Shown: piece after piece, positions 45,671 through 47,793 of the stretch
How the letters are laid out: the number at the start of each line of letters is the position of its first letter
Numbering within the stretch: position 1 is the first letter of the stretch
NCBI GenBank assembly: GCA_963777495.1
Contig: CAVZQM010000001.1
Location: 387,594 to 451,593 of the forward strand
Source of the DNA: an uncultured Actinomycetes bacterium
GTDB lineage: Bacteria; Actinomycetota; UBA4738; HRBIN12
Length of the DNA: 64,000 bases
Direction: 5' to 3'
The notes under the pieces: generated by a model
What the model was told of the DNA's origin: nothing
The model's database searches: none
What the model saw: the letters and a program-made list of their open reading frames with translations, nothing else
Translations under genes and position numbers: made by a program

Positions 45671-46000
45671 ATGTGCCGCGCGTTGAAGGTGCTATGCGTC
45701 GCCGGCGATGCCGAGTCGCTGCAGGCCTTGAAGAACGCCGCGGTCTCGGCCGAGTGGGAGCTGGCACCCGGGGCGACGAACGAAGCCGACGCCATCGGAC
45801 AGATCGACGCCGAGCGGCCGCACATCCTGATCGTGTTCGGTCCGTTCGAGCGGTTGGTGCAGCTCGCGGCCGAGCGGTTCCCGGGGATGCGGATCATCGC
45901 CGACCGGGACGCACCCGGGGCCACGAGCGTGGCCACCTCGCTGGACGAGGTCCGGGGGCTCATCGAAGGAGGCCCCCGCCCGGGCGGTCCGGTTAGGTGA
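45671..46000 (+). CDS. Stand-alone degenerate receiver-like protein
   Basis: LKVLCVAGD..A..NEADAIGQI..ERPHILIV beta/alpha pattern with no acidic phosphoacceptor. Confidence 0.55.
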   Translation: MCRALKVLCVAGDAESLQALKNAAVSAEWELAPGATNEADAIGQIDAERPHILIVFGPFERLVQLAAERFPGMRIIADRDAPGATSVATSLDEVRGLIEGGPRPGGPVR

Positions 46001-46033
46001 CGTGAGGGGTTCGCCGACGTCAGCTCGTAGCCG

Positions 46034-46468
46034 TCAACTCCACGGACCCCAACCGTGCTGTTTCACCATGCGCATGGTGACGATGATGTTGGCGCGCGCG
46101 TTGTACGCCGACCAACCCTGGAACCCATAGGCGGATGCCCGGCCCGGCCAGTACCGCAGCATGTGTTGATAGATGCCGGCGCAACCGGATGGGTTGTAGG
46201 CGTTGGGATGGAACTGCGACTCGCGATCCGCGATCGCGAGCGCGGTGCCTTCGCCGCCGGGGATGTTCCAATGGTCGGCGGCGCATCGGATCAGCTGCTT
46301 GATGTGCCAGGTGCCCTTGTGCCAGTCGTAGTTGCAGATCTTCGCCGGTACCTGAAGCCGGTCCTCGGGGATACCCGCGTGCGAGATCGTTGCGGGCACC
46401 ACCGTCAGGATCGCGGCGATGGAGAGCGCGGCCACGGCGTGGCGGCGCAGCGTCGAAAGATATGTCAT
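46034..46468 (-). CDS. Secreted lysozyme-like lytic transglycosylase (SLT-like)
   Basis: Signal peptide; ALAIADRESQFHPNAYNPSGCAGIYQH, ANI, WGPW. Confidence 0.8.
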   Translation of the reverse strand: MTYLSTLRRHAVAALSIAAILTVVPATISHAGIPEDRLQVPAKICNYDWHKGTWHIKQLIRCAADHWNIPGGEGTALAIADRESQFHPNAYNPSGCAGIYQHMLRYWPGRASAYGFQGWSAYNARANIIVTMRMVKQHGWGPWS

Positions 46469-46735
46469 AACGGGTTCACCCCCGCGGTGACCCGGAGCTG
46501 GCTGCTCCGCCTCTTGCGACCGGACGGCTACGGACTCCGCCGGAGCCGGTCGACCCGCGGTAGGTCGTGGGTGCCTGCATCACCTCCTGTTGTCGGTGGT
46601 CTCTGTGTGACCTATCGCTCGCATCCGAACGGCCCTCCCTGCTCCTCCTGCACGCAGGCAAGCGCCAACCGCCCTGGGAAGGTGGAGGCGCACTTGCGTG
46701 CAGGGGAAGGAACGGACAGTCGTTCGTCGCGGACC
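46469..46735 (-). ncRNA. Candidate structured 5' leader or sRNA of unknown family
   Basis: Follows a consensus promoter; about 100-nt rod-like hairpin (46626-46726) plus further hairpins, one covering the putative SD. Confidence 0.45.
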
Positions 46736-46740
46736 GGCCA

Positions 46741-46770
46741 ACCCTAGACAACGACTTGAGGAACTGACAA
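46741..46770 (-). promoter_or_regulatory. Housekeeping-sigma promoter
   Basis: TTGTCA-N18-TAGGGT on the minus strand. Confidence 0.7.
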
Positions 46771-46842
46771 CTCGAGGATGACCCAAGGTCACAACCCGCG
46801 GACGAGGGTCGGTCATCGCCGACTCCGGGCTACCATGGGTGC

Positions 46843-47793
46843 GTGAGCGGAAAAGTCCTCCTCGCGTCACCCCGCGGCTACTGCGCCGGCGTGGATCGTG
46901 CCGTCGACGCGGTCGAGCGCGCGCTGGCCAAGCACGGCGCGCCCGTGTACGTCCGCAAGCAGATCGTGCACAACCTGCACGTGGTGCGCGACCTCGAATC
47001 GAAGGGCGCCGTGTTCGTCGAGGAGGAGACCGAGGTGCCCGAAGGAGCGGTCGTCGTTCTCTCCGCCCACGGCGTCGCTCCCGATGTCTACTCGAACTCG
47101 AAGGTTCGGGGTCTCGAGGTGATCGACGCGACCTGTCCGCTCGTGACGAAGGTCCACATGGAGGCACGGCGATTCGCGGAGGACGGCCGGACGATCGTGC
47201 TGATCGGCCACCAAGGCCACGAGGAGGTCGTGGGCACGACGGGCCAGGCCCCCGAGCGGACGATCTTGGTCCAGAGTCCCGACGAAGCCCGGTCGGTCGA
47301 GATCCAGGACCCCGACAACCTGTCGTACCTGACCCAGACGACCCTGTCCGTCGACGAGACGAACGAGATCCTCGAGATCCTGCGGGAGCGGTTCCCCGGG
47401 ATCGAGGGACCGCCTCGTGAGGACATCTGCTATGCCACGACCAACCGTCAGGACGCGGTGAAAGCGCTGGCACCGCGCGTGGATGTGCTCCTGGTGATCG
47501 GCTCGAAGAACTCGTCGAACTCGAACCGCCTGGCGGAGGTGAGCCGGGAGCGCGGCACGCCGGCCTACCTCGTCGACGACGACACCGACGTCGATCCCGC
47601 CTGGTTGGAGGGGGCGGAGACGGTGGGCCTCACGTCCGGGGCATCGGCGCCGGAATGGCTGGTGGATCGCATGCTGGCGTTCCTGGCATCCGACGGGTTC
47701 GACGACGTCGAGGTCATCACCCTGGCCGAAGAGCGCGTCCGCTTCTCGCTCCCCGTGGGTGTGCGCGACCTGCCGCTGACCGGTGCCGGCTAG
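46843..47793 (+). CDS. ispH: 4-hydroxy-3-methylbut-2-enyl diphosphate reductase
   Basis: PRGYCAGVDRA, IVHN, DATCPLV, DICYATTNRQ, SSNSNRL. Confidence 0.97.
   Translation: MSGKVLLASPRGYCAGVDRAVDAVERALAKHGAPVYVRKQIVHNLHVVRDLESKGAVFVEEETEVPEGAVVVLSAHGVAPDVYSNSKVRGLEVIDATCPLVTKVHMEARRFAEDGRTIVLIGHQGHEEVVGTTGQAPERTILVQSPDEARSVEIQDPDNLSYLTQTTLSVDETNEILEILRERFPGIEGPPREDICYATTNRQDAVKALAPRVDVLLVIGSKNSSNSNRLAEVSRERGTPAYLVDDDTDVDPAWLEGAETVGLTSGASAPEWLVDRMLAFLASDGFDDVEVITLAEERVRFSLPVGVRDLPLTGAG

What the first reader, a model, noticed from the sequence alone, without database searches (positions are those of the whole stretch)
46469..46770. Promoter-driven structured leader of about 265 nt before a lytic transglycosylase gene
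Seen (minus strand): promoter TTGTCA-N18-TAGGGT, then a rod-like hairpin over 46626-46726. It has a perfect 10-bp core (CCTGCACGCA/TGCGTGCAGG), GTTCCT/AGGAGC and CGAACG/CGTTCG closing helices. Further hairpins follow (GGTC/GACC, CGACC/GGTCG, GACCGG/CCGGTC). A final GGGTCACC/GGTGAACCC hairpin covers the only SD-like GGGGGTG before the ATG. Known: actinobacterial cell-wall hydrolase genes often carry cis-regulatory RNAs such as the c-di-AMP riboswitch. Only fragments resemble that riboswitch (GAGTCC, GGGGTGAA); its CCGTCAGCTAAC-like 3' half is absent. Inference: a new riboswitch or leader, or an independent 6S/Ms1-like rod-shaped sRNA.
Basis: partly seen in the sequence, partly recalled or inferred. 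Interest (0 to 1): 0.62.

Follow-up and report, generated by a model that had tools for sequence, protein, structure and literature searches.

The report
New leader RNA before wall-cutting enzyme
The 374-base gap is the promoter plus a roughly 265-base folded, untranslated leader of a cell-wall-cutting enzyme mRNA; it is a previously uncatalogued regulatory RNA, conserved across an uncultured order of soil actinobacteria, and most likely controls whether ribosomes can start on the gene.

Summary
The conserved promoter (TTGTCA-N18-TAGGGT) and the rod hairpin exist, and the rod covaries. They are replaced by long-range helices that do covary: alpha:beta (UAGGUC/GACCUA) and P1 (CCGCGG/CCGCGG).

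It is an invariant "orphan" Shine-Dalgarno AGGAGGUGAU (46579-46588), a perfect 10-nt complement of this genome's 16S 3' tail (15 nt in some relatives). No usable start codon follows it.

- The leader matches no Rfam family.
- It occurs as a rule once per genome (a few have two or three), in 194 of 294 genomes of its class. In every locus inspected it is divergent from ispH.
- In different families it precedes three different lytic-transglycosylase types: SLT-like, RlpA-like DPBB and Rpf.
- 41 of 41 sampled genomes lack both the c-di-AMP riboswitch and any DAC cyclase, so it is not a ydaO variant.

Best reading: a new cis-acting translational switch. The true ribosome-binding site (GGGGGUGA) is predicted to be paired. 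A CACCC anti-SD can toggle between the orphan SD and the true one. The trigger is unknown.

The parts
46779..46793 (.). Inverted repeat TGTGACC-N-GGTCA between the ispH and leader promoters; probable operator of an unknown DNA-binding regulator
   Evidence: Sequence. GTGAC(C)-N3-5-(G)GTCAC is kept at the same place in homologous loci of several genera and families. Similar palindromes were noted independently in other genomes.
46765..46770 (-). -35 hexamer TTGTCA
   Evidence: Kept as TTGTCA/TTGCCA/TTGTCG in homologues.
46741..46746 (-). -10 hexamer TAGGGT (TANNNT type). The TSS is inferred at about 46735-46733, giving a leader of about 265 nt.
   Evidence: Kept as TAGGGT/TAGCGT/TACGGT across genera. 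The TSS itself was not tested.
46728..46734 (-). P_L 5' strand (GUCCGCG), which closes the 5' domain by pairing with 46623-46617
   Evidence: Column pairs 14-20/159-166 covary, for example GC 45/CG 17, CG 29/UA 20/UG 10 and GC 31/CG 26.
46712..46727 (-). P_a hairpin (ACGAAC..GUCCGU). In most relatives its 3' half can instead pair with the segment after the rod.
46633..46712 (-). Rod hairpin: pyrimidine-rich 5' strand, conserved apical loop CCACCUUCCCAGGG (46685-46672, resembling the 16S anti-SD), and purine-rich 3' strand
   Evidence: Fold. Conservation and covariation of the apical helices.
46617..46632 (-). Rod-closing segment CCGUUCGG (46632-46625) and P_L 3' strand UGCGAGC (46623-46617)
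46609..46614 (-). alpha (UAGGUC), the 5' strand of a long-range helix with beta
   Evidence: The second pair is A-U in 50, C-G in 11, G-C in 1 and G-U in 1 of 64 sequences, and unpaired in 1.
46589..46608 (-). J: A/C-rich linker (ACAC...CGACAAC) with no helix supported by conservation or covariation
46579..46588 (-). SD1: invariant orphan Shine-Dalgarno AGGAGGUGAU. Its GGUG can pair with CACC (hairpin H0).
   Evidence: Invariant columns in A2 and A4. A 10-nt perfect complement of this genome's own 16S 3' end. No conserved start codon or ORF follows.
46569..46573 (-). CACCC: anti-SD-like pentamer that can pair either with SD1 (H0) or with SD2
   Evidence: Invariant. The two alternatives are close to equal in energy over 93 homologues.
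46561..46566 (-). beta (GACCUA): pairs with alpha. Its ACC can alternatively pair with the GGU of SD2.
46555..46560 (-). P1 5' strand CCGCGG
   Evidence: Extensive covariation in distant families.
46516..46554 (-). P2 hairpin (base GACCGG/CCGGUC). The tip is CGGYGAA/UUCRCCG in most other genera.
   Evidence: 5 of 7 tip pairs show double changes.
46489..46511 (-). P3 hairpin (CGGAGC [AGCCA] GCUCCG) with conserved loop NGCCA
   Evidence: 7 of 8 pairs show double changes.
46482..46487 (-). P1 3' strand CCGCGG
46476..46483 (-). SD2: GGGGGUGA, the working ribosome-binding site 7 nt before the AUG. Predicted to be mostly base-paired.
   Evidence: Unpaired probability 0.09-0.33 in 35 full-length homologues.
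46034..46468 (-). Regulated gene: 144-aa secreted SLT-like lytic transglycosylase
46843..47793 (+). Divergent ispH (LytB). Probably leaderless, with a TACCAT -10 at 46831-46836.

Best explanation
The stretch is the promoter and the roughly 265-nt 5' leader of the mRNA for a secreted lytic transglycosylase. The leader is a new family of cis-regulatory RNA that controls translation initiation.

Shown:
- It folds into a 5' domain. This comprises a closing helix P_L, a hairpin P_a, and a long rod with an apical loop that resembles the 16S anti-SD.
- It also folds into a 3' domain: alpha:beta helix, hairpin H0, and helix P1 enclosing P2 and P3.
- P_L, the rod's apical helices, alpha:beta, P1, the P2 tip and P3 covary. 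H0 is invariant, so covariation cannot test it.

Inferred:
- The true ribosome-binding site SD2 (GGGGGUGA) directly follows P1 and is kept paired. Its partner is either the invariant CACCC or the ACC of beta.
- CACCC can instead pair with the invariant upstream orphan SD1 (AGGAGGUGAU), and beta can instead pair with alpha.
- The RNA can therefore toggle between an SD2-masked form and an SD2-open form.
- SD1 is a perfect partner of the 16S 3' tail, has no start codon, and follows an unstructured A/C-rich tract. It most likely binds 30S subunits directly as a standby or decoy site. The folded P1 and alpha:beta stack would hold it next to SD2.
- The 5' domain, with its anti-SD-like tracts, modulates access to SD1 and alpha.

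The signal that sets the balance is unknown. It could be a small ligand, the 30S subunit itself, temperature or RNA processing. It is not c-di-AMP.
For: - No Rfam family matches.
- The element is single-copy in this genome.
- It is conserved in 28 of 41 relatives by BLAST and in 76 of 80 loci encoding the SLT homologue.
- By covariance model it occurs in 194 of 294 genomes of the class, as a rule once per genome. Among 401 genomes sampled across the phylum, only this order has it.
- Covariation in the 3' domain: 89% of cells paired against about 42% for slid controls, with 14 pairs showing double changes.
- Covariation in alpha:beta: A-U 50 and C-G 11, with 1 non-pair.
- P1 is remodelled with compensation in distant families.
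- Covariation in the 5' domain: 84.8% paired against 40-56%, and 235 against 65-85 double-change cells.
- G-U pairs outnumber A-C pairs, 277 to 68 in the 5' domain. This places the RNA on the gene's strand.
- The same leader, always divergent from ispH, precedes SLT-like, DPBB_1 (RlpA-like) and Rpf genes in different families. It is duplicated together with the gene in one genome.
- SD1, CACCC, GACC and GGGUG are invariant.
- SD1 is a 10-nt complement of this genome's own 16S tail, and 15 nt in some genera.
- No conserved ORF or start codon follows SD1.
- The H0 state and the CACCC:SD2 state differ by -0.55 +/- 2.0 kcal/mol over 93 homologues.
- In full-length leaders SD2 is mostly paired (unpaired probability 0.09-0.33). 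The AGGA of SD1 is largely open (0.46-0.81).
Against: - There are no expression data.
- The pairings that would mask SD2 (CACCC:GGGUG, ACC:GGU) and H0 involve invariant bases. Covariation therefore cannot test them.
- alpha is not detectable in families f5, f8 and part of f7, although beta is conserved there. alpha:beta therefore cannot be the universal anti-sequestor.
- P2 and P3 are replaced by a single GAUAA-loop hairpin in other families. The inner domain is therefore not a conserved aptamer.
- Binding of 30S to SD1 is pure inference.
- Thermodynamic predictions for a 70% G+C RNA are unreliable.
Confidence: 0.55

Rival explanations
1. A classical small-molecule riboswitch. A metabolite or second messenger linked to wall status would bind the conserved core and stabilise either the SD2-masked or the SD2-open fold. 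Candidates are a muropeptide, a UDP-MurNAc-peptide, an isoprenoid precursor, (p)ppGpp or c-di-GMP. SD1 would then be only the anti-anti-SD strand.
For: - The RNA is large and has many helices, with invariant unpaired nucleotides.
- It is associated with three unrelated enzyme families of one function. This is the pattern seen for c-di-AMP riboswitches and for the orphan lysM/M23 motifs (PMC5737381).
- Two alternative folds of equal energy are typical of an expression platform.
Against: - There is as a rule only one copy per genome and one regulated gene.
- Order-wide, only the SD and anti-SD modules and P1 are universal. The enclosed domain is swapped between families.
- The AGGA of SD1 is invariant yet lies in no supported helix. 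An anti-anti-SD role does not explain this.
- No ligand can be named from gene context.
Confidence: 0.25
2. An mRNA stabiliser or processing element. SD1 would work like the Bacillus STAB-SD: a 30S subunit parked on an orphan SD protects the processed mRNA from 5'-exonuclease. The 5' domain would be cut off by an RNase. There would be no switching.
For: - SD1 is a perfect complement of the 16S tail, lacks a start codon, and lies about 120 nt upstream of the AUG.
- A long rod-like duplex upstream could be an RNase III substrate.
Against: - This does not explain the invariant CACCC and beta, the covarying alpha:beta helix, or the sequestered SD2.
- SD1 is not near the predicted 5' end.
Confidence: 0.08
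3. A divergent c-di-AMP (ydaO) riboswitch.
For: - Gene context (Rpf and other wall hydrolases) matches that of ydaO in other Actinobacteria (PMC9960051 and PMC10117811 listed).
- Short look-alike words occur (GGGGUGAA, CACCC.GAC..CUA.C). This resemblance rests on my recollection of the ydaO consensus.
Against: - RF00379 gives no hit, even at E<=10 in the window.
- RF00379 gives no hit in 41 genomes of the order, while controls ring.
- No DAC-domain cyclase occurs in any of the 41 genomes, while 11 of 14 controls ring.
- The helix topology differs.
Confidence: 0.02
4. An independent trans-acting small RNA (6S/Ms1-like rod), or a small protein or uORF encoded in the gap.
For: - The rod-shaped 5' domain has a strong conserved promoter.
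- A 34-codon frame, MQAPTTYRG..., starts at the AUG inside SD1 in this genus.
Against: - There is no terminator.
- The structure runs into the RBS.
- There are no 6S or Ms1 hits.
- The AUG is only 2 nt from GGAGG and is absent in other genera.
- The reading frame relative to the conserved core shifts between genera.
- The distance from SD1 to the AUG varies by amounts that are not multiples of three.
Confidence: 0.04

Closest known systems
ydaO-yuaA / c-di-AMP riboswitch (Rfam RF00379), e.g. upstream of rpfA and nlpC-type genes in Actinobacteria
   Same: Both are long structured 5' leaders in front of peptidoglycan-cleaving enzyme genes, including Rpf, in Actinomycetota. Both are cis-acting.
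   Different: - There is no match to the covariance model.
- The helix topology is different.
- The host order has neither ydaO nor any DAC cyclase.
- Control is probably translational through SD masking. No terminator is present.
RpfB switch of Mycobacterium tuberculosis (Schwenk et al. 2018, PMC6009663; reported as B12-sensing in bioRxiv 10.1101/2024.07.19.603033)
   Same: - Both are lineage-restricted RNA switches in the leader of a muralytic (Rpf) gene that sits beside an isoprenoid (MEP pathway) gene.
- The mycobacterial switch also links the gene to ribosome biology, through ksgA.
   Different: - The mycobacterial element is a 130-nt terminator/antiterminator restricted to the M. tuberculosis complex, M. 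marinum and M. ulcerans.
- This one has no terminator, is about 265 nt long, occurs in a different class, and carries an orphan SD.
- Sequence similarity between the two was not tested.
Orphan 'c-di-AMP-related' motifs lysM-Actino, lysM-TM7, lysM-Prevotella, M23 and NLPC-P60 (Weinberg et al. 2017, PMC5737381; Rfam)
   Same: All are candidate cis-regulatory RNAs of unknown ligand upstream of wall-degrading enzyme genes. The four the paper groups as c-di-AMP-related (lysM-Actino, lysM-TM7, lysM-Prevotella, M23) did not bind c-di-AMP.
   Different: - None of these Rfam models matches.
- The only trace is an antisense, non-significant NLPC-P60 hit (E = 6.9), possibly because SD1 and an anti-SD-like stretch of that model are complementary.
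STAB-SD 5' mRNA stabiliser (Bacillus thuringiensis cryIIIA) and ribosome standby sites (E. coli tisB)
   Same: - An SD-like sequence perfectly complementary to the 16S 3' end, with no start codon, lies about 100 nt upstream of the real start.
- The real RBS is buried in structure. This part rests on my own knowledge of these systems.
   Different: - Here the orphan SD is embedded in a large covarying RNA.
- It can pair with an anti-SD that also fits the real SD.
- No functional data exist.

Membership tests
c-di-AMP riboswitch (ydaO-yuaA, RF00379) | Match to the Rfam covariance model at the gathering score (38 bits) | tested here: not met
   No hit at gathering score or at E<=10 in the window. 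None in 6 distant homologous loci. None in 41 genomes of the order, while B. subtilis and C. glutamicum controls ring.
c-di-AMP riboswitch (ydaO-yuaA, RF00379) | The host makes c-di-AMP (DAC-domain cyclase DisA/CdaA, PF02457) | tested here: not met
   0 of 41 genomes have a DAC domain. 11 of 14 control genomes do.
c-di-AMP riboswitch (ydaO-yuaA, RF00379) | Located upstream of cell-wall hydrolase, osmolyte or K+ transport genes | tested here: met
   The downstream genes are SLT-like, DPBB_1 and Rpf-domain proteins.
c-di-AMP riboswitch (ydaO-yuaA, RF00379) | Direct binding of c-di-AMP | not testable with these tools
   Needs in-line probing or ITC.
RpfB switch (M. tuberculosis) | Intrinsic terminator and antiterminator alternatives in the leader | tested here: not met
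   No terminator-like site in 46000-47000. The RpfB switch is defined by a stem-loop plus poly-U.
RpfB switch (M. tuberculosis) | Sequence or structure homology to the mycobacterial element | not tested
   The mycobacterial sequence was not at hand. The element is reported to be restricted to a subset of pathogenic mycobacteria.
lysM-Actino / NLPC-P60 / M23 motifs (Rfam) | Match to the respective covariance model | tested here: not met
   No hits were found. The only trace is NLPC-P60 on the opposite strand, 14.7 bits against a gathering score of 53.7, E = 6.9.
6S / Ms1 RNA | Match to the covariance model, and an independent transcript with its own 3' end | tested here: not met
   No Rfam hit. 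No terminator. The 3' helix abuts the RBS.
STAB-SD / standby-site type orphan SD | An SD perfectly complementary to the 16S 3' end, without a start codon at functional spacing | tested here: met
   The 16S end is ...GCUGGAUCACCUCCUUUCU and SD1 is AGGAGGUGAU. No ORF start follows at usable spacing and none is conserved.
STAB-SD / standby-site type orphan SD | The real RBS is sequestered in stable structure | tested here: inconclusive
   This is predicted only. SD2 has an unpaired probability of 0.09-0.33 in 35 homologues. The bases involved are invariant, so covariation cannot test it.
STAB-SD / standby-site type orphan SD | 30S binding at the orphan SD changes mRNA stability or translation | not testable with these tools
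   Needs toeprinting, half-life measurements and reporter assays.

The most novel reading that the evidence does not exclude
The leader is a switch whose ligand is the ribosome. Free 30S subunits bind the orphan SD1 through 10-15 nt of the 16S 3' tail. This releases the CACCC anti-SD from SD1 onto the true ribosome-binding site, or the reverse. Synthesis of the single wall-cutting (resuscitation-type) enzyme would then be coupled to the pool of free, non-hibernating ribosomes. The anti-SD-like loop of the 5' rod would act as an internal competitor of the 16S tail.
Probability: 0.15. Interest if true: 0.9.

Novelty: new variant of a known kind. Interest (0 to 1): 0.7.

Why it matters
Wall-cutting enzymes such as Rpf, RlpA and SLT proteins are dangerous to the cell and are tightly controlled. 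In well-studied Actinobacteria this control is exerted by the c-di-AMP riboswitch or the RpfB switch.

This uncultured soil order lacks c-di-AMP signalling in every genome sampled. It nevertheless keeps an elaborate RNA of about 265 nt in front of whichever lytic transglycosylase sits beside ispH. This points to an independent, RNA-based solution to the same control problem.

The invariant orphan Shine-Dalgarno, with up to 15 nt of perfect complementarity to the 16S tail, is unusual. It sits in one RNA with an anti-SD that fits both it and the real ribosome-binding site. That arrangement gives a directly testable model for standby or decoy control of translation, or for sensing of ribosome availability. 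It also adds a well-supported new family to the catalogue of structured bacterial RNAs.

Tried and rejected
- **Rfam.** I scanned the whole window at gathering score, the region at E<=10, and six distant homologous loci at E<=1. Only hairpin noise appeared (miRNA models), plus an antisense NLPC-P60 fragment.
- **Small ORF or leader peptide after SD1.** I rejected this. The AUG is genus-specific, the frame relative to the conserved core shifts, and lengths vary by amounts that are not multiples of three.
- **Repeat or mobile element.** I rejected this because the element is single-copy in this genome.
The partner sequences are not conserved outside the genus, and both conflict with covarying long-range helices.
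- **ydaO variant.** I rejected this.
- **Consensus promoter and terminator scan.** It found nothing. The promoter call therefore rests on conservation only.
- **Covariation test of H0, CACCC:SD2 and ACC:SD2.** This is impossible because all partner bases are invariant.
- **Search for alpha in families f5, f7 and f8.** It is not found within 42 nt upstream of SD1 in most of them.
- **Pairing of the rod loop with SD1.** It is plausible on complementarity (7 bp, counted by hand), but it could not be tested.

Full report
**What is there**

Window 46469-46842 is a 374-bp divergent intergenic region. On the minus strand it precedes a 144-aa ORF (46034-46468). That ORF has a signal peptide and a weak but above-threshold Pfam SLT match. 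On the plus strand it precedes ispH/LytB (46843-47793). A G+C-rich stretch of about 265 nt follows, whose predicted fold is more stable than shuffles (z = -3.5). The generic sigma-70 and terminator scan calls nothing here.

**It is not a known RNA family and not a repeat**

- Rfam 15 gives no match in the whole window at gathering scores.
- At E<=10 on the region it gives only microRNA-hairpin noise and a non-significant NLPC-P60 fragment on the wrong strand.
- Six distant homologous loci give nothing either.
- The sequence occurs once in its own genome.

**It is conserved far beyond neutral expectation**

- BLAST against 41 relatives finds the whole leader at 82-90% identity in all 12 congeners. 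A core is up to 94% identical in other families of the order.
- A protein-anchored search returned 80 loci encoding the SLT homologue. All were MAGs, nearly all labelled Actinomycetota or Actinomycetes. The RNA core was upstream in 76 of them.
- A covariance model of the 3' domain hits 194 of 294 genomes of the class-level sample. It almost always hits once per genome.
- In a 401-genome sample of the phylum, the model hits only members of this order.
- Five first-stage notes from other genomes flagged the same gap between ispH and a transglycosylase gene. I take that only as agreement.

**Secondary structure: 3' domain**

I used 66 distinct sequences (alignment A2). A long-range helix P1 (CCGCGG, 46560-46555, with CCGCGG, 46487-46482) encloses two hairpins.

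- P2 has a tip of CGGYGAA/UUCRCCG in most genera.
- P3 is GGACG-C-AGC [NGCCA] GCU-C-CGUCC.
- Across the structure, 89% of cells pair against about 42% when partners are slid. Fourteen pairs show double changes: 7 of 8 in P3, 5 of 7 in the P2 tip, and 2 in P1.
- In other families P1 is rewritten with compensation. Examples are CCGAGC/GCUC(C)GG, CUCGGC/G(C)CCGAG, CCUGGC/GCC(G)AGG and CCCCGGG/CCCG(A)GGGG.

A second long-range helix joins alpha (UAGGUC, 46614-46609) to beta (GACCUA, 46566-46561). When beta is GACCGA, alpha is almost always CGGUC. The key pair is A-U in 50 sequences and C-G in 11, with 1 non-pair among 64 sequences. The partners of those hairpins are not conserved outside the genus.

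**Secondary structure: 5' domain**

I used 84 sequences.

- A closing helix P_L joins the first transcribed bases (46734-46728) to 46623-46617, just before alpha. It covaries strongly, for example GC 45/CG 17 and CG 29/UA 20/UG 10.
Its apical helices covary.
- The rod's loop CCACCUUCCCAGGG (46685-46672) is nearly invariant within the family.
- Overall 84.8% of cells pair against 40-56% for slid controls.
- G-U pairs greatly outnumber A-C pairs (277 against 68 in this domain). The selected strand is therefore the minus strand, the mRNA sense of the hydrolase gene.

AGGAGGUGAU at 46588-46579 (SD1) is invariant over more than 100 sequences.

- The genome's own 16S rRNA ends ...GCGGCUGGAUCACCUCCUUUCU. 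SD1 is therefore a perfect 10-nt Shine-Dalgarno.
- In several other genera the sequence reads AGGAGGUGAUCCAGC, a 15-nt perfect complement.
- No start codon lies at usable spacing. The AUG 2 nt downstream exists only in some genera. The short frame it opens is not conserved and shifts relative to the conserved bases.
- SD1 is followed by a variable loop of 4-7 nt and then by an invariant CACCC (46573-46569).
- The real ribosome-binding site, GGGGGUGA (SD2, 46483-46476), lies 7 nt before the AUG. It directly follows the 3' strand of P1.

**How it probably works (inference)**

- CACCC can pair with the GGUG of SD1 (hairpin H0) or with the GGGUG of SD2.
- The ACC of beta can pair with the GGU of SD2 or, as part of beta, with alpha.
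- Forcing H0 or CACCC:SD2 in 93 homologues gives energies that differ by only -0.55 +/- 2.0 kcal/mol.
- In partition-function folds of 35 full-length leaders, SD2 is mostly paired (unpaired probability 0.09-0.33). The GGUG of SD1 is also mostly paired (0.04-0.30). The AGGA of SD1 is largely open (0.46-0.81) and follows an A/C-rich linker with no supported helix.

I therefore read the leader as a translational switch built from two SDs and competing anti-SD strands.

- The invariance of AGGA lies in no supported helix. It is best explained by direct binding of the 16S tail, that is, a standby or decoy site for 30S subunits.
- P1 and alpha:beta would place that site next to SD2.
- The 5' domain carries anti-SD-like tracts (the UCCUUCCCC strand and the CCACCUUCC loop). 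It ends immediately before alpha, so it is well placed to gate SD1 and alpha.
- None of the SD-masking pairings can be tested by covariation, because all partners are invariant.
- alpha is not found in some families that keep beta. alpha:beta is therefore an added layer, not the universal mechanism.

**Gene context argues for regulation of a function, not of one protein**

In every family examined the leader is divergent from ispH, but the gene behind it differs.

- Families f1 and f3 have the small SLT-like protein.
- Families f6 and f8 have RlpA-like DPBB_1 proteins.
- Families f5 and f7 have Rpf-domain proteins.
- In those other families the 3' domain is shorter (84-87 nt). A single hairpin with a GCNGAUAAC loop sits inside P1.
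- One genome has two tandem DPBB genes, each with its own copy of the leader.
- One degenerate copy (L157) lacks an intact hydrolase gene.

**It is not c-di-AMP**

The obvious analogue is the ydaO riboswitch, which controls rpfA and other hydrolase genes in Actinobacteria.

- RF00379 is absent from all 41 sampled genomes of the order, while it rings in B. subtilis and C. glutamicum.
- The DAC cyclase domain is absent from all 41, while it is found in 11 of 14 controls.
- This lineage therefore seems to lack c-di-AMP signalling altogether.

**Other known switches**

- The M. tuberculosis RpfB switch is a terminator-based, 130-nt element restricted to a few pathogenic mycobacteria, later reported as B12-sensing. 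The present leader has no terminator.
- The orphan lysM-Actino, lysM-TM7, lysM-Prevotella and M23 motifs of Weinberg et al. 2017 occupy the same niche and did not bind c-di-AMP. Their Rfam models, and that of NLPC-P60, do not match here.

**Limits**

The TSS, the leader length and any processing are inferred.
- The host lineage is known only from MAGs.
- The trigger of the switch is unknown.

**Verdict**

This is a real, well-supported new family of structured cis-regulatory leader RNA for a muralytic gene. It has an unusual orphan-SD module. It is of a known general kind (an SD-sequestering leader or riboswitch candidate) but has a new architecture.

Noticed in passing
window 46779-46793: Inverted repeat TGTGACC-N-GGTCA lies between the ispH -10 and the leader's -35. 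GTGAC(C)-N3-5-(G)GTCAC is kept at this place in many homologous loci of families f1 and f6. It is a likely operator for a shared, unidentified regulator of ispH and the hydrolase gene.
   Followed up: partly
window 46831-46845 (+ strand): ispH appears leaderless. A conserved TANNNT box (TACCAT here; TACGAT or TAGCAT elsewhere) lies 6-7 nt before its GTG/ATG start in all families inspected.
   Followed up: partly
41 genomes of the order (G000-G040): No DAC-domain (c-di-AMP cyclase) gene and no ydaO riboswitch occur in any sampled genome. The order seems to lack c-di-AMP signalling, which is unusual for Actinomycetota.
   Followed up: yes
L154 811-897 and 1501-1587 (same as L164): Two tandem RlpA-like DPBB genes each carry their own copy of the short leader variant. 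The leader was duplicated together with the gene.
   Followed up: partly
L157 1501-1611 (-): This copy of the leader is degenerate (GGAGGAGAUCC, CACCA, GACG) and no recognisable hydrolase ORF lies downstream. That is consistent with decay once the gene is lost.
   Followed up: no
L140, L143-L161 (families f5-f8): The short variant has a conserved hairpin loop GCNGAUAAC inside P1, in place of P2 and P3. The role of this loop is unexplained.
   Followed up: no
window 46569-46600 (+ strand): There is a weak antisense resemblance to the 5' end of the Rfam NLPC-P60 model (GGUGCNUGCAUCACCU). It may arise because SD1 is the complement of an anti-SD-like stretch in that motif. It is not significant (E = 6.9).
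   Followed up: partly
window 45671-46000 (+): A 109-aa ORF convergent with the hydrolase gene has no Pfam family.
   Followed up: no
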